The notes beneath the pieces are model-generated. The model saw only the letters and a list, made by a program, of their open reading frames with translations, was not told the DNA's origin and ran no database searches. A stretch of DNA of 64,000 nucleotides from Bacillota bacterium (GTDB taxonomy: Bacteria; Bacillota; SHA-98; UBA4971): the NCBI GenBank assembly GCA_012842395.1, contig DUSX01000034.1, positions 388,650 through 452,649 on the forward strand, given 5' to 3'. Every line of letters starts with the position of its first letter. Position 1 is the stretch's first letter. Below, piece by piece: positions 53,167 through 57,284 of the stretch. The position numbers and the translations under genes were made by a program.

Positions 53167-53874
53167 GAAGCCACGGGACCTTGCCGCCCCGGGCGATCGG
53201 CAGCCTCCCTCCTCTTCGATTGTCCTTCGTCCGCCTTCCGCCGCGGTTCAGCGCAACGCACAAAAACAATACCTCGGTAGGCGCCGATCCAGCGACCGCC
53301 GAGGCAGTGTCGTGCGACTCCTTCGGCCGTTGGTATTCTAACACGCGTGCAGGACGTTGTAAAGGCAGCCCTAGCCGACCTACCTTGCCCTGACGGGGAT
53401 CTCGTGTGCTCCTACCCGGTAGGCGGCTGGTTCGGAACTCCTAAGGCTTTCGTCCAAGTCGTCTATGCCAGCCTGCGGCTGACCCCATCGAAAGGATGTA
53501 GATGGCAGCCATCGATCGTTTTCAAGGTAGTCGCCCATGGTGGCCAGGTGCCGCCGCCACGGAGGGATTGAAAACGACAACTGAGTGCTACTTTCAAGAC
53601 AGTCGTCCGTGACGGCGGGCTGCCGCCGCCATCAAGAAGATGAGGCTAGCGACCGCCGCCCGTTTTCGGGGTAGAAAGCTGTTCCCTGTAGAAGGATATG
53701 TGACGGAGGCAGCGAAATACTTTTACGAGAATCAATATAGCCTATGTTGCATATAGCATCGAGTCATTCGAATATACAGACAACAACTTTGCGTCCTGCA
53801 ATGGGACGTGCGTGGACGCTATGATCACGGCCCTATAAGCGGTCGCTTCGGGCCGCGGGAGCGAATAGCGAGAC

Positions 53875-53914
53875 CGGCCACGCACCTGTTTAGGTGTGTG
53901 GCCGGTTATTTCGC
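53875..53914 (+). terminator. Rho-independent terminator on the plus strand in the tig/helicase intergenic region
   Basis: CCGGCCACGCACC-TGTTTA-GGTGTGTGGCCGG followed by TTATTTCG. No annotated plus-strand gene ends here. Confidence 0.45.
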
Positions 53915-54110
53915 CCCTGCAGGTCCGCGGGCACACCAATGGGATCGGGGTGAAATGGGATGGAACTCGCTCGAAGAGCAAGGCGCTGGTGGCACCGGCA
54001 GCTCATAATCAACCCGGGTCGCGTTGATTCCTGGCTCGTGAGCCTCCTCAGCATCCTCGCAACGGCTGGCATCGTAGCGGTGATCGTGCGCTTCATGGGG
54101 TAGCCGCTTG

Positions 54111-56795
54111 TCATCTTGTGTTCCGAGGCACGCCGCGAAGCCACTTGGTGACTTCCGTCGAGCCCTCTTCGCGCCACGCCCCGCCGAGCGAGGCGAGGAA
54201 GGTGAAGTACGGGCTGGGCCCACGGGGCTTTCCGTTGTTGGCCGCGTGCCCGGTAAGGAAAAGCGCCTTCCTCGCCCTGGTTATCGCGACGTAAAACACC
54301 CGACGCTCTTCCGCGCCTTTCCTTTCCTTGAGCGCGGGGTACGAGGGGAATTCATGCTCCGACAAGCCCGCCACGAAGACGATGTCGAACTCGAGCCCCT
54401 TCGCCTGGTGGACGGTGAGCACCCTCACGCGCTCGTCGTTGGGATCCAGACGATCCACGTTTCTTGCGAGCGCCACGAAGCCGAGAAGCGACTCGAGGGA
54501 CGAAAGGGCGTCCAAGTCTGCGGAATCGCGATTCTTGAAGACGCGAAGGAGCTCTTCGAGGTTGGCGAGGCGTCGCGCTCTCTCGGGGTCTCTCGCATAG
54601 TACTCGCGCAGCCCCGACTCGTTGAGCACCCGGTCGAGCAACTCGTGAGGTCGCAGTCGACCCAGTTCCCGGCGCAGCCTAGCCACCTCTTGCGCGAGAG
54701 ACGAGAACGCGGCACCTACATCCTTCACCGCGCGCATCCTTTCGGGGGCCGTGGCTCTCACGAGCGGCGCGAGACACGTGATAATGCTGCAGGTCGCCTC
54801 AACGTCGTCCGCCGCCCGATGCGTGGGCAACGCCGCCACGTTCAGCCTCCGGCACAGCGCCTCAAGGGAAAAGTCGTCACCGCCCAGAAAGCGTCGGGCC
54901 ATTTCAAGAGTATCGATGTACTCGGCGAGGCCACCCGTCCCGAGGCCCAGGCGTTGCCGGTACGCCGCGAGCATGCGCGCGTCGAAGCCCACGTTGTGCC
55001 CGACGAGCACACTGCCCGCTGCAAAACGATCGAACTCTTCGAGCGCACGCCGCGGATCCTCGCCGTTTGACGCAAGGAACGAGTCGGAAAGCCCGTGGAC
55101 CTCTTCCGACTCGCCGACGCTCACCGTGTTTCTCAAATACCGGTGGAATCGCGCTGTCGCCTTGCCCTTTTCCAACCTGACAGCCGCGAGCTCCACGATC
55201 TCGTCAGAGGCCGGGTCGAGCCCGGTGGTCTCCGTGTCGAACACGGTGACGACGCCTCCCCCGAGCGCAGCGAGGAACGTGCCAAATGGATCTCCTGTGG
55301 TAAGGGTCGATTCGGCCACCATATCGGGGAGACGCAGGCCGGCCTGTTCTGCCTCCAGAACCCGTGAAACGGTCCGGTCGCCGATGTTGCGTGGAGGACG
55401 TTGCAGGATACGCCGGAAGCTACGCCCGTCCGCTGGGCTGCAAAGGAACCGGAGGTACGCCACGGCATCCTTCACCTCCTGGCGCCGGAAGAACTCGTAT
55501 GCCTCCACGGTGAGGTGAGGAATGCCGTGTTTCTGGAGCGCTTCGGAAATGGCCGCTCCCCGGCTGTTGGCCCGGGTAAGGACGCCTATCCGCCCATACG
55601 GGACACGGCCCGCCGCGTCACCACCCGGCCCGACATTGGCGAGAGTTCGGATCTTGCGGGCGATCCAGTCCGCCTCCGCCTCGCTATCGCGCCCGAAATG
55701 CACGATCACCGGGTCTCCAACGTCGGCTGACGGGGCTGGTTGCGCCACGCCGCGCACGCTGTACTCCCGGGCCACGCACCCGGCCAAACCCACGAGCACG
55801 CGGGTCGCCCGGTGATTCCGCGTGAACGAGAAGTCCCTGGCACCCGGGAAGTCCGCACGGAAGCTGCTCAGCACTTTGTCGGGCATGGAACCCCGCCACT
55901 CATAAATGGTCTGGTCAAAATCGCCTGCAAGAACGAGGTTCCTCGAGCGCCAAGCCAGCGCTCGCACGATCTCATATTCCGAGAAGTGGGTATCCTGCAT
56001 CTCGTCCACCTGGATCATGGAGAAGCGAGATTCCCAGCGGCGCCGGATGCCGGGAACGAGTGCTAGCATCGCACGGGTGAAGTAAACGAGATCCCCGAAG
56101 TCAAAGGCATGATTGGACGCGAGCTCGCGTTGGTACTCAACGGCTAGCGTGCGGTACGCCGCGGTGAGGCCTTGAAAGACATCGTCGGCCACCGTGCCCA
56201 GCGAGAGCGCGGTATGAGGTGCCTCGCTCTTAGCTCTCTCGATGACATCATAGATGTCGGACACCTTGGGCTCGCGGTCGCCACGCCTGTACGCCGGTGC
56301 AACGACGACCGGTGCAGGAGGGCCTCCGCGCCGCGATATCTCGCCTGCCGTCCGCCTCAGGATGGATCGAAGGATCTCGGCCGAGTCTTCGTCGTCGAAG
56401 ATGGTGAAATCCGAGGGGAGGCCCATCGTCTTCGCCTCGAGTCGAAGCATCCACGCGCACAACGCGTGAAAGGTGCGGACCACGACTCTCTTCGCGCGGT
56501 CGCCGCAGTGAACCGCGACGCGCTGACGTAGCTCCTCCGCAGCCCGGTTGGTGAACGTGAGGCACAGGATGCGAGACGGCTCCACCCCGCGCCTAATCGC
56601 CTCGGCCGTCCGCTCTGCCAGGGCGAGGGTTTTGCCCGTTCCCACGGGAGCATGGAGGACCGCGCAGCCATCCTGAAACTCAACGAAGGCCCGCTGCTCG
56701 TCATCGAGCTCGATGTCTTCAGGCACGTTACGCCCCGCCGCGAGGGTCACAGCCCTTCCGGACAAGCTTCTACTAGGCATCCCCTGACCCGCCAT
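54111..56795 (-). CDS. UvrD/PcrA-family superfamily-1 helicase with an embedded DnaQ-like DEDDh 3'-5' exonuclease domain
   Basis: Helicase motifs: I APVGTGKT, Ia LCLTFTNRAAEEL, II DEMQD, III GDFDQTIYEWRGS, V VHQAKGLEFDIVFV, VI RRVFYVAITRARKALFLT. Between motifs IV and V sits an exonuclease domain: FDTETTGLD (Exo I), LVGHNVGFDARML (Exo II), THRAADDVEATCSI (Exo III, H-x4-D). Confidence 0.8.
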   Translation of the reverse strand: MAGQGMPSRSLSGRAVTLAAGRNVPEDIELDDEQRAFVEFQDGCAVLHAPVGTGKTLALAERTAEAIRRGVEPSRILCLTFTNRAAEELRQRVAVHCGDRAKRVVVRTFHALCAWMLRLEAKTMGLPSDFTIFDDEDSAEILRSILRRTAGEISRRGGPPAPVVVAPAYRRGDREPKVSDIYDVIERAKSEAPHTALSLGTVADDVFQGLTAAYRTLAVEYQRELASNHAFDFGDLVYFTRAMLALVPGIRRRWESRFSMIQVDEMQDTHFSEYEIVRALAWRSRNLVLAGDFDQTIYEWRGSMPDKVLSSFRADFPGARDFSFTRNHRATRVLVGLAGCVAREYSVRGVAQPAPSADVGDPVIVHFGRDSEAEADWIARKIRTLANVGPGGDAAGRVPYGRIGVLTRANSRGAAISEALQKHGIPHLTVEAYEFFRRQEVKDAVAYLRFLCSPADGRSFRRILQRPPRNIGDRTVSRVLEAEQAGLRLPDMVAESTLTTGDPFGTFLAALGGGVVTVFDTETTGLDPASDEIVELAAVRLEKGKATARFHRYLRNTVSVGESEEVHGLSDSFLASNGEDPRRALEEFDRFAAGSVLVGHNVGFDARMLAAYRQRLGLGTGGLAEYIDTLEMARRFLGGDDFSLEALCRRLNVAALPTHRAADDVEATCSIITCLAPLVRATAPERMRAVKDVGAAFSSLAQEVARLRRELGRLRPHELLDRVLNESGLREYYARDPERARRLANLEELLRVFKNRDSADLDALSSLESLLGFVALARNVDRLDPNDERVRVLTVHQAKGLEFDIVFVAGLSEHEFPSYPALKERKGAEERRVFYVAITRARKALFLTGHAANNGKPRGPSPYFTFLASLGGAWREEGSTEVTKWLRGVPRNTR

Positions 56796-57100
56796 CTTGC
56801 CACGCCACCTCTTCGGCAGCGCCCCGGACCCGGCCGATACCGGGAACCGGGGCCCGTTCCGTCAGCCAGAATAGCTATTGGTGGCTAACTTCGACGGGTT
56901 CTGGGGCTATCCTGCCACGGCAGGATAAATCTGCCTGAGCGCGCCACGCGTCGAGTCCGGGAGTAGTACAACTCCGAATGCCTCGGAATGACCCCAGGGC
57001 AGACGAATGCAGCCCAAAACATGAAAACAGGCGACGGTTAGGCAATGCCAACCGTCGCCTGTTTGCGTTTTCCCAGCGTACAAGCCCCGTAACAACAGGA

Positions 57101-57177
57101 TGGGGTGGATGATGGGATTCGAACCCACAGCCTCTGGAGCCACAGTCCAGCGCTCTCACCATTGAGCTACATCCACC
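57101..57177 (-). tRNA. tRNA-His (anticodon GTG), with encoded G-1 and CCA
   Basis: Reverse complement folds as G|GTGGATG|TA|GCTC|AATGGTGA|GAGC|G|CTGGA|CTGTGGC|TCCAG|AGGCT|GTGGG|TTCGAAT|CCCAT|CATCCAC|C|CCA. The extra 5' G pairs with discriminator C73, which is His-specific. Confidence 0.85.
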
Positions 57178-57284
57178 GCAAAACCTTCGTCGCCCTCATG
57201 CCGCGACACTCACAGGATACCACAGAAATCCCGACGCGTCAAGGCCGCACAGCCGCGCAGCCGCGCACGCTCGCGGCCGCGCCT

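What the first reader, a model, noticed from the sequence alone, without database searches (positions are those of the whole stretch)
54111..56795. UvrD/PcrA-type helicase with a DEDDh 3'-5' exonuclease domain inserted into the 2B region
A single 894-aa protein carries all SF1A helicase motifs. A complete DnaQ-like exonuclease is inserted between motifs IV and V: FDTETTGLD, HNVGFD, H-x4-D. A helicase-nuclease fusion in one polypeptide suggests a dedicated end-resection or repair enzyme rather than a canonical UvrD or PcrA. The gene sits next to tRNA-His and the tig operon.
Basis: seen in the sequence. Interest (0 to 1): 0.5.

Follow-up and report, generated by a model that had tools for sequence, protein, structure and literature searches.

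The report
PcrA-like helicase with built-in exonuclease
This is a real, intact gene for a UvrD/PcrA-like DNA helicase with a complete 3'-5' exonuclease nested inside its regulatory 2B domain; it belongs to a widespread but unstudied family, some of whose cyanobacterial members sit beside defence-type reverse transcriptases.

Summary
Window 54111..56795 (-) is one uninterrupted 894-aa ORF. It has all SF1A helicase motifs and a DnaQ-like DEDDh exonuclease (Pfam RNase_T, residues 518-671). The exonuclease is nested in the 2B subdomain, just after the GIG duplex-binding motif, between motifs IV and V.

It is not an artefact. About 360 species-level genomes carry the same colinear architecture, and so do at least 137 clusters at 50% identity. 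In all 76 near-full-length members checked, every ATPase and exonuclease catalytic residue is invariant.

It is not the PcrA or UvrD orthologue. It scores far below the equivalog cut-offs and has no C-terminal Tudor domain hit. In Acetoanaerobium noterae a homologue coexists with a bona fide PcrA.

In a cyanobacterial clade of the family the gene is translationally coupled to the UG35 methylase-reverse transcriptase (PADLOC 'RTasHel'). The only paper found calls that partner just a 'UvrD-like helicase'. The window copy lies in a Bacillota clade with no RT. There it is vertically inherited in the order tRNA-His, helicase, tig, clpP, clpX, lonB.

Most likely it unwinds and degrades a 3'-ended strand, like UvrD plus ExoI/ExoX in one protein. 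Whether it serves repair or defence is unresolved. I found no biochemical study. Interest is moderate.

The parts
54111..56795 (-). Complete CDS, 894 aa: SF1A UvrD/PcrA-like helicase with a nested DEDDh exonuclease
   Evidence: ORF. Pfam and NCBIfam domains. AlphaFold model with pLDDT 87.3 and pTM 0.82.
55854..56708 (-). Residues 30-314: helicase domains 1A/1B with the Q motif, Walker A (GTGKT 52-56), Ia, II (DEMQD) and III
   Evidence: Pfam UvrD-helicase E 1e-54. Aligns to PcrA from residue 12 onward. Motif residues are invariant in 76 of 76 members, apart from 1-2 gapped sequences at the N-terminal motifs.
55353..55829 (-). Residues 323-481: 2A N-terminal part with motif IV, and the first half of 2B ending in the GIG-type motif (RNIGD 469-473)
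   Evidence: Continuous alignment up to PcrA residue 432. The family consensus is RGIGD; the I and the second G are near-invariant.
54711..55352 (-). Residues 482-695: the inserted segment, made of linker helices, the DEDDh exonuclease and a long return helix. It replaces PcrA residues 433-462.
   Evidence: Gap between the two PcrA-aligned blocks. Secondary structure and pLDDT of about 86-97, apart from one loop near residue 625.
54783..55244 (-). Residues 518-671: DnaQ-like DEDDh 3'-5' exonuclease core (D520, E522, D605, H659, D664)
54249..54710 (-). Residues 696-849: second half of 2B and the return to 2A, with motifs V and VI
   Evidence: Aligns to PcrA 463-619. Pfam UvrD_C and UvrD_C_2.
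56796..56945 (-). Conserved 5' leader or promoter region of the gene. It includes a 16-bp near-palindrome (56910-56925, TCCTGCCACGGCAGGA) and a GC-rich hairpin just before the ribosome-binding site. A regulatory role is inferred, not shown.
   Evidence: The block is conserved in 6 syntenic loci whose proteins are only 69-87% identical. The palindrome occurs once in the 64-kb window, against 0.09 expected. No Rfam family matches.

Best explanation
The gene encodes a functional, stand-alone helicase-exonuclease. It is an SF1A (UvrD/PcrA/Rep-type) motor that translocates 3'->5' on ssDNA. A DnaQ-like DEDDh 3'-5' exonuclease has been inserted at the tip of its mobile 2B subdomain, right after the GIG duplex-contact motif. 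It is a paralogue of PcrA, not its orthologue. It belongs to a conserved, sparsely distributed and experimentally uncharacterised family. In the window's Bacillota lineage it is a vertically inherited chromosomal gene with its own conserved upstream region. It has no partner gene that is conserved across the clade.

Proposed mechanism (inferred): the motor loads on a strand with a free 3' end, at a nick, a gap or a 3' tail. It peels that strand off its complement, and the tethered exonuclease digests it from the 3' end. This would be a one-polypeptide equivalent of E. coli UvrD working with the DEDDh exonucleases ExoI/ExoX in 3'-directed mismatch-repair excision, or of B. subtilis MrfA helicase plus MrfB DEDDh exonuclease. 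Because the nuclease rides on 2B, the open/closed swivel of 2B that regulates UvrD-family helicases probably also gates nuclease access.

Shown: architecture, intact catalytic residues, fold, family membership, paralogy, synteny. Inferred: substrate, coupling, and biological role. I favour DNA repair or clearance of unwanted 3'-ended strands.
For: Architecture and topology.

Both active sites are under selection. Walker A K55, D264/E265, the ssDNA-stacking Y298/W300/R301, H796, R840, and D520/E522/D605/H659/D664 are invariant in 76 genome-derived members and in 35 database members.

Family size: 360 species genomes. 137 clusters at 50% identity match the whole 2B-exonuclease-2B segment at E<=1e-30, and nearly all full-length ones match at about residues 380-740 of proteins 800-890 aa long.

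Paralogy: the protein scores 377 bits against the pcrA cut-off of 911. A. noterae has both a 720-aa PcrA (937 bits, passes) and an 828-aa fusion (335 bits).

Vertical inheritance: the order tRNA-His, helicase, tig, clpP, clpX, lonB recurs in L003-L007. Helicase identity (87->69%) falls in step with Tig (92->78%) and ClpX (99->94%). GC content is 0.63-0.67, slightly above the window mean of 0.626 and within the range of neighbouring genes.

The gene is not phage-borne and not on true plasmids. The exonuclease is closest to DNA-acting members: PolC exonuclease, epsilon and ExoX.
Against: No activity has been measured for any family member that I could find. No repair-specific signal was seen: there is no Cheo/LexA box and no adjacent repair genes.

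The geometry is untested. In UvrD/PcrA-DNA complexes 2B sits ahead of the motor, on the duplex, while the 3' end of the tracked strand trails behind on the 1A side. A simple 'chew the trailing 3' end' model therefore needs 2B to swing or the enzyme to act as a dimer. I could not read model coordinates to check distances.

The best-scoring profile is the defence-database model RTasHel (572 bits). Part of the family is RT-linked or sits beside R-M systems. A defence role therefore cannot be excluded. Whether this genome also has a canonical PcrA is unknown. There is none in the 64-kb window.
Confidence: 0.5

Rival explanations
1. It is a stand-alone anti-phage or anti-plasmid helicase-nuclease. 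It would be an RT-less relative of the UG35 DRT accessory helicase that recognises and degrades foreign DNA ends or replication intermediates. Single-protein nuclease-helicase defences such as Nhi, or UvrD-like GajB in Gabija, are comparable.
For: The best profile in any library is PADLOC RTasHel (572 bits, against 377 for pcrA). 29 of the 80 loci fetched, all cyanobacterial, have the gene overlapping or abutting a UG35 methylase-RT in two gene orders. Three more loci abut a UG14 RT, a group with strong defence enrichment. Three loci follow a HindVP restriction-modification pair. The gene evolves faster than its housekeeping neighbours. It lies next to a tRNA gene, a common site for island insertion.
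Against: In the NJ tree the window sits in a Bacillota clade in which none of the 22 members has an RT. No UG35 or UG14 RT is found in the 64-kb window. The neighbours are a sugar ABC transporter, tRNA-His, tig, clpP, clpX and lon, with no integrase or defence genes. Synteny is stable and divergence is congruent across at least 6 species-level genomes, with no clear compositional anomaly. The family is absent from viral contigs and from true plasmids. Even for UG35 itself the defence prediction was inconclusive (PMC9226505).
Confidence: 0.25
2. It is this lineage's working PcrA. The canonical gene would have been replaced by a version that gained an exonuclease, and it would perform the usual PcrA roles: RecA-filament removal, replication-transcription conflict resolution and rolling-circle plasmid unwinding.
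For: PcrA is the closest solved or curated helicase by sequence. All motor residues are conserved. It has a housekeeping-type chromosomal context. No second UvrD-family gene lies in the 64-kb window.
Against: It fails the pcrA equivalog cut-off by a wide margin (377 against 911). No PcrA/UvrD Tudor C-terminal domain was detected; only about 45 residues follow motif VI. It is not next to ligA. In the one complete cultured genome I could examine, the fusion coexists with a PcrA that passes the cut-off. The family is found in only about 360 of 185,579 species genomes, a patchy spread that does not fit an essential orthologue.
Confidence: 0.12
3. The nested DEDDh domain works on RNA, in the manner of RNase T or oligoribonuclease. 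The enzyme would then clear R-loops or RNA:DNA hybrids, or in the RT-linked relatives process RT template or product, rather than resect DNA.
Against: The strongest sequence and structure matches are DNA exonucleases: PolC exonuclease, epsilon and ExoX. The window copy has no RT partner. Sequence alone cannot assign sugar specificity.
Confidence: 0.1
4. It is an artefact: a frameshifted or chimeric assembly joining a helicase gene and an exonuclease gene, or a decaying pseudogene.
For: None found.
Against: It is a single ORF with helicase sequence on both sides of the exonuclease. The identical protein is on record on at least 3 contigs in ENA and Logan data. The same colinear architecture occurs in hundreds of genomes with invariant catalytic residues. 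The model is a confident single-chain fold.
Confidence: 0.01

Closest known systems
PcrA / UvrD / Rep (SF1A helicases; PDB 1PJR, 3PJR, 2IS1, 1UAA)
   Different: A 214-residue segment carrying a DEDDh exonuclease replaces 30 residues in the middle of 2B. There is no C-terminal Tudor (RNA polymerase-binding) domain. It scores below all equivalog cut-offs. It coexists with a true PcrA in A. noterae.
PADLOC 'RTasHel': the UvrD-like helicase associated with UG35 methylase-RT (Mestre et al. 2022, PMC9226505)
   Same: It belongs to the same protein family, with the same nested exonuclease and invariant catalytic residues. RTasHel is the best-scoring profile for the window protein at 572 bits.
   Different: The window copy is in a separate, RT-free Bacillota clade and has no RT within 64 kb. 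RT-linked members score 1064 bits. The paper describes only a 'putative UvrD-like helicase' and never mentions an exonuclease.
E. coli UvrD with ExoI/ExoX in mismatch-repair excision; B. subtilis MrfA helicase with MrfB DEDDh exonuclease
   Different: In those systems the activities are on separate proteins, and MrfA is an SF2 helicase. Here they are in one chain, with the nuclease on the regulatory 2B domain. The functional equivalence is my inference, not a test.
Firmicute DinG (S. aureus, B. subtilis) and human WRN
   Different: Those are SF2 helicases (XPD-like 5'->3', RecQ 3'->5') with the exonuclease as an N-terminal appendage. Here the helicase is SF1A and the exonuclease is nested inside a helicase subdomain.
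AddA / RecB / AdnB helicase-nucleases
   Same: Each has an SF1A UvrD-like motor fused to a nuclease in one chain, and they give weak homology hits.
   Different: Their nuclease is a C-terminal PD-(D/E)XK endonuclease placed behind the motor, and they work in heteromeric complexes. The window protein has no such domain and scores far below their cut-offs.

Membership tests
SF1A UvrD/Rep/PcrA-like helicase superfamily | Motifs Q, I, Ia, II, III, IV, V and VI, with catalytic Lys, DE and Arg finger | tested here: met
   All motifs were located and are invariant in the family. Pfam UvrD-helicase E 1e-54 and UvrD_C E 1e-77.
SF1A UvrD/Rep/PcrA-like helicase superfamily | Four-subdomain fold: 1A, 1B, 2A, 2B | tested here: met
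SF1A UvrD/Rep/PcrA-like helicase superfamily | ATP-dependent 3'->5' translocation and unwinding | not testable with these tools
   Needs biochemistry. It is only inferred from the conserved motor and ssDNA-stacking residues.
PcrA (NCBIfam TIGR01073 equivalog) | Whole-protein score at or above the curated cut-off of 911.2 bits | tested here: not met
   The score is 376.7 bits, in two stretches. For comparison, the A. noterae PcrA scores 937.
PcrA (NCBIfam TIGR01073 equivalog) | C-terminal Tudor-like RNA polymerase-binding domain | tested here: not met
   No such Pfam hit at E<=0.01. Only about 45 residues follow motif VI.
UvrD (TIGR01075) / Rep (TIGR01074) | Score at or above the curated cut-offs (1144 and 951 bits) | tested here: not met
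   297.6 and 288.2 bits.
DEDDh (DnaQ-like) 3'-5' exonuclease | ExoI D-x-E, ExoII D, ExoIII H-x4-D | tested here: met
   D520/E522, D605 and H659/D664 are present and invariant in 76 of 76 members. Pfam RNase_T scores 89.5 against a cut-off of 24.
DEDDh (DnaQ-like) 3'-5' exonuclease | RNase H-like alpha/beta fold of the DnaQ type | tested here: met
UG35 DRT system (PADLOC RT_UG35 + RTasHel) | Helicase matching the RTasHel profile | tested here: met
   572 bits, E 5e-172. This is lower than RT-linked members at 1064 bits. The profile has no curated cut-off.
UG35 DRT system (PADLOC RT_UG35 + RTasHel) | Adjacent UG35 methylase-reverse transcriptase gene | tested here: not met
   tblastn with two UG35 RTs and one UG14 RT finds nothing in the 64-kb window or in any of the Bacillota-clade loci among those fetched. 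The neighbours are tRNA-His, an ABC transporter and tig.
AddA / RecB helicase-nuclease | C-terminal PD-(D/E)XK nuclease domain and an equivalog-level score | tested here: not met
   125 and 114 bits against cut-offs of 708 and 696. No PD-(D/E)XK Pfam hit.
Gabija GajB | UvrD-like helicase encoded next to the GajA OLD-family nuclease | tested here: not met
   The GajB profile hits reflect generic UvrD homology and score below RTasHel. No GajA-like gene is adjacent.

The most novel reading that the evidence does not exclude
The family is a previously undescribed class of self-contained 'unwind-and-digest' enzymes. The exonuclease is mounted on the swivelling 2B regulatory domain, so the open/closed switch that licenses UvrD-type helicases also gates nuclease access. 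In this reading the stand-alone chromosomal form seen in the window is ancestral. It was later recruited as the effector or processing arm of reverse-transcriptase systems (UG35, possibly UG14) in cyanobacteria. That would link a housekeeping repair enzyme to DRT-type systems.
Probability: 0.25. Interest if true: 0.65.

Novelty: new variant of a known kind. Interest (0 to 1): 0.45.

Why it matters
Helicase-nuclease fusions (RecB, AddA, DinG, WRN) are central to repair and to many defence systems. In the examples compared here the nuclease is a terminal appendage. Here it is nested in the 2B domain, the element that autoinhibits and activates UvrD, Rep and PcrA. That makes this family a natural test of how 2B movement could be coupled to a second catalytic activity.

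The family is conserved across Bacillota, Cyanobacteria and several other phyla, yet I found no experimental work on it. The one paper that met it, as the partner of UG35 reverse transcriptases, did not mention the exonuclease. Knowing that the partner is a helicase-exonuclease would change how UG35 systems are modelled. The RT-free, syntenic Bacillota clade offers a simpler setting in which to define the enzyme's basic chemistry.

For this window specifically, the gene is a well-behaved member of that family, not a one-off.

Tried and rejected
1. Frameshift or chimera: rejected.
2. SOS regulation: a Cheo-box search (CGAAC-N4-GTTCG, up to 2 mismatches) found nothing between tRNA-His and the start codon, and window-wide counts were at chance level.
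3. Known RNA element in the conserved leader: Rfam at E<=1 gave only noise. RNAalifold shows a GC hairpin with a few compensatory changes, but six sequences are too few to decide.
4. Phage or plasmid carriage: there were only 3 distant viral hits, two of them too short to contain the exonuclease. The one plasmid-database record covering more than 80% of the query is a 2.6-Mb chromosome-sized replicon.
5. Literature: five searches found no characterisation of a UvrD/PcrA helicase with a nested DEDDh exonuclease, and one further paper read in full had none either. Only Mestre 2022 mentions the UG35-associated 'UvrD-like helicase', and its supplements are not held.
6. AFDB fold search: the library was unavailable.
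7. Co-occurrence with canonical pcrA in the window's own genome: this could not be tested.
8. Distance from the exonuclease active site to the DNA path: model coordinates are not exposed, so this was not measured.
Full report

Yes. One search lists a single ORF at 54111..56795 on the minus strand, 894 aa with an ATG start. A GAGGTGG ribosome-binding site lies 9 nt upstream. Pfam finds UvrD-helicase at residues 30-314 (E 1e-54). UvrD_C matches as one stretch over 323-849 (E 1e-77), and RNase_T at 518-671 (E 5e-25) is nested inside it.

So do the helicase motifs: I (52-56), Ia (80-86), II (263-268), III (291-302), IV (404-410), V (794-804) and VI (835-842). tRNA-His is at 57101-57176 (-). tig, clpP, clpX, lonB and lon follow downstream.

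**2. Where exactly is the insertion?**

phmmer against PDB aligns residues 30-481 to Geobacillus PcrA 12-432 and residues 696-849 to PcrA 463-619. So 214 residues (482-695) stand in place of 30 PcrA residues.

By established PcrA/UvrD domain boundaries, 2B spans roughly residues 380-550. The insertion point is therefore in the middle of 2B. It lies directly after the helix-hairpin 'GIG' motif that contacts duplex DNA. That motif reads RNIGD at 469-473 in the window and RGIGD in the family consensus. Both halves of 2B are retained, so this is an insertion and not a replacement.

**3. Is it an artefact?**

No. The identical protein is on record on at least 3 contigs in ENA and Logan data from biogas-fermenter metagenomes, the longest 498 kb. 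The top 120 database homologues all carry PF00580 + PF13361 + PF00929.

A scan of one genome per species found 360 matching loci, of which the best 80 were fetched. phmmer with only the 2B-exonuclease-2B segment (residues 440-760), run against 1.84 billion cluster representatives, found 137 clusters at E<=1e-30. Nearly all of the full-length ones are 800-890 aa and match at about residues 380-740.

In 76 near-full-length genome-derived members every catalytic residue is invariant: Walker A K55, D264/E265, Q295/Y298/W300/R301, R408, H796/K799/G800/E802, R840, and the exonuclease residues D520/E522/D605/H659/D664. Both enzymes are therefore under purifying selection.

**4. Is it the organism's PcrA or UvrD?**

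The evidence says no.
- It scores 377, 298 and 288 bits against the pcrA, uvrD and rep equivalog cut-offs of 911, 1144 and 951.
- No Tudor C-terminal domain hit was found, and only about 45 residues follow motif VI.
- It is not beside ligA.
- In the one cultured, complete replicon I could examine (Acetoanaerobium noterae DSL2, NZ_CP154629.1), an 828-aa homologue with the same nested RNase_T lies among housekeeping genes. A separate 720-aa PcrA in the same record passes the equivalog cut-off at 937 bits.

So the family is a paralogue of PcrA, at least in that genome. I could not test whether the window's own genome has a canonical pcrA. There is none in these 64 kb.

**5. The unexpected relative**

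The best profile in any library is PADLOC 'RTasHel' (DRT) at 572 bits.

I clustered the neighbours of the 80 fetched loci. In 29 of them, all cyanobacterial, the helicase-exonuclease gene overlaps or abuts a 1020-1180-aa protein. The overlap is 3-12 nt in most cases, which fits translational coupling. Two gene orders occur. That neighbour is RT_UG35 (1190-1358 bits) with a Pfam RVT_1 core.

Mestre et al. 2022 (PMC9226505) defined UG35 as a methylase-RT-alphaRep protein 'associated with cluster 22 ... a putative UvrD-like helicase'. They rated its defence association inconclusive. The word 'exonuclease' does not occur in the paper.

Three further cyanobacterial loci carry a different RT, RT_UG14 (696 bits), just downstream. 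UG14 is a group with strong defence enrichment. Three Anabaena/Dolichospermum loci place the gene directly after a HindVP restriction-methylase pair.

**6. Where the window copy sits**

A neighbour-joining tree of 76 helicases splits into two groups:
- a Bacillota-type clade with no RT in any member, which includes the window;
- a second clade in which the RT-linked cyanobacterial genes are nested among RT-free lineages (Acidimicrobiia, Desulfobacterales, Caldilineales, Nodosilinea/Spirulina/Phormidium).

With midpoint rooting this suggests the stand-alone state is ancestral and RT linkage is derived. That is an inference from a simple tree.

No UG35 or UG14 RT is detectable anywhere in the window. 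Within the window's subclade (L003-L008, 69-87% identity) the order tRNA-His, helicase, tig, clpP, clpX, lonB is largely conserved. Helicase identity falls in step with its neighbours: HEL 87->69%, Tig 92->78%, ClpX 99->94%. GC content (0.63-0.67) is slightly above the window mean of 0.626 and within the range of neighbouring genes. The family is essentially absent from viral contigs and from true plasmids. All of this points to a vertically inherited chromosomal gene rather than a mobile defence cassette. It does evolve faster than the chaperone and protease genes next to it.

**7. How it most likely works**

Shown:
- an intact SF1A motor with the ssDNA-stacking residues used by PcrA/UvrD;
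- an intact DnaQ-type active site;
- the nuclease tethered to the tip of 2B.

Established background: SF1A enzymes track 3'->5' on ssDNA. DEDDh enzymes hydrolyse from a free 3'-OH. 2B swivels between open and closed states and regulates helicase activity. In E. coli mismatch repair, UvrD displaces the nicked strand and the DEDDh exonucleases ExoI and ExoX digest it when excision runs 3'->5'. B. subtilis MrfA and MrfB are another helicase plus DEDDh pair.

Inference: this protein fuses the two steps. It would load at a 3' end (nick, gap or tail), unwind, and digest the 3'-ended strand, with 2B movement gating the nuclease.

Weak point: in DNA-bound UvrD/PcrA, 2B lies on the duplex ahead of the motor, while the tracked strand's 3' end trails behind. 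Direct hand-off would need the open conformation, a dimer, or a different target such as a 3' end in the duplex ahead. I could not measure this because model coordinates are not exposed.

I put about 0.5 on a coupled unwind-and-degrade enzyme with a repair or strand-clearance role. I put about 0.25 on a stand-alone defence role, about 0.12 on PcrA replacement and about 0.1 on an RNA-directed nuclease.

**8. Regulation (minor)**

The 150 nt upstream of the start codon are strikingly conserved in six syntenic loci. They include a 16-bp near-palindrome, TCCTGCCACGGCAGGA at 56910-56925. It occurs once in the window, against 0.09 expected. A GC-rich hairpin before the ribosome-binding site shows a few compensatory changes. 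There is no Cheo/LexA box and no Rfam match. This suggests dedicated regulation by an unknown factor.

**9. Comparison with known systems, and novelty**

By fold and motifs the protein is a member of the SF1A superfamily and of the DEDDh superfamily. It is not a member of the PcrA, UvrD, Rep, AddA or RecB equivalogs. It is not a complete UG35 DRT system either, because the RT partner is absent.

Helicase-nuclease fusions are a known kind, but a DEDDh domain nested in 2B of an SF1A helicase is not described in any paper I could find. Databases already hold many members under generic names. So the window gene is an ordinary member of a catalogued but uncharacterised family. I rate it a new variant of a known kind, with moderate interest (0.45).

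The most novel reading not excluded is a 2B-gated unwind-and-digest enzyme class whose stand-alone form was later recruited by DRT reverse transcriptases. I give it a probability of about 0.25.

Noticed in passing
window 53805-53888 (+) and 53960-54103 (+): A c-di-GMP-II-GAG riboswitch aptamer (Rfam RF03169, 66.4 bits against a gathering score of 40) is followed by a 47-aa ORF, MELARRARRWWHRQLIINPGRVDSWLVSLLSILATAGIVAVIVRFMG, which has a hydrophobic C-terminal stretch. The pair is convergent with the helicase, and the two stop codons are only 7 nt apart. The riboswitch plus the conserved peptide (INPGRVDSW core) recur in L003, L004, L005 and L007. In L007 they lie upstream of the helicase, so they are not strictly linked to it.
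   Followed up: partly
window 56796-56945 (-), palindrome at 56910-56925: The helicase has a highly conserved upstream leader with a 16-bp near-palindrome (TCCTGCCACGGCAGGA; TCCTGCCATGGAAGGA in relatives) and a GC-rich hairpin before the Shine-Dalgarno sequence. The palindrome occurs once in the window. No Rfam family and no LexA box match. It is possibly an operator for an unknown regulator.
   Followed up: partly
L029, L030, L045 (cyanobacteria), just downstream of the helicase-exonuclease gene: A 384-521-aa reverse transcriptase of a different group (PADLOC RT_UG14, 696 bits) sits directly after the helicase-exonuclease gene in three loci that lack UG35. It may be a second RT partner or just a neighbour in a defence island.
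   Followed up: partly
L056, L062, L076 (Anabaena/Dolichospermum): The helicase-exonuclease gene immediately follows a HindVP restriction endonuclease and a C5-cytosine methylase, and a DUF2288 gene follows it. This looks like a defence-island context with no RT.
   Followed up: no
L065, L075, L079 (Phormidium/Spirulina/Nodosilinea): A second RT-free lineage has its own conserved, non-defence synteny: an upstream methyltransferase and SH3 protein in all three loci, and a downstream cation-efflux gene in L065 and L075. It parallels the Bacillota situation.
   Followed up: no
L003 (JBLNCC010000042.1): The MAG is labelled 'Betaproteobacteria bacterium'. Yet this contig is 86-87% identical in the helicase and 92-100% identical in Tig, ClpP, ClpX and LonB to the window, and it is fully syntenic with the Bacillota MAG loci. 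The label or the binning is probably wrong.
   Followed up: no
NZ_CP154629.1 (L086, L087): The record is filed as a 2.63-Mb 'plasmid' of Acetoanaerobium noterae DSL2. It carries pcrA, PFOR, ychF and other core genes, so it is chromosome-like. It is almost unannotated in the PLSDB table, with 4 features.
   Followed up: no
window 57025-57064 (-): A strong 17-bp-stem intrinsic terminator lies directly after tRNA-His. It separates the tRNA transcript from the helicase gene. A sigma-70-like promoter precedes the tRNA at 57214-57242.
   Followed up: no
window CDS residues 1-26 and about 155-178: Two low-confidence segments (pLDDT below 50). One is an N-terminal tail. The other is a Pro/Arg-rich insertion in domain 1B that has no counterpart in PcrA. 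Together with a longer C-terminus, they account for most of the extra length of this subclade (879-894 aa against about 817-826 aa in cyanobacteria).
   Followed up: no
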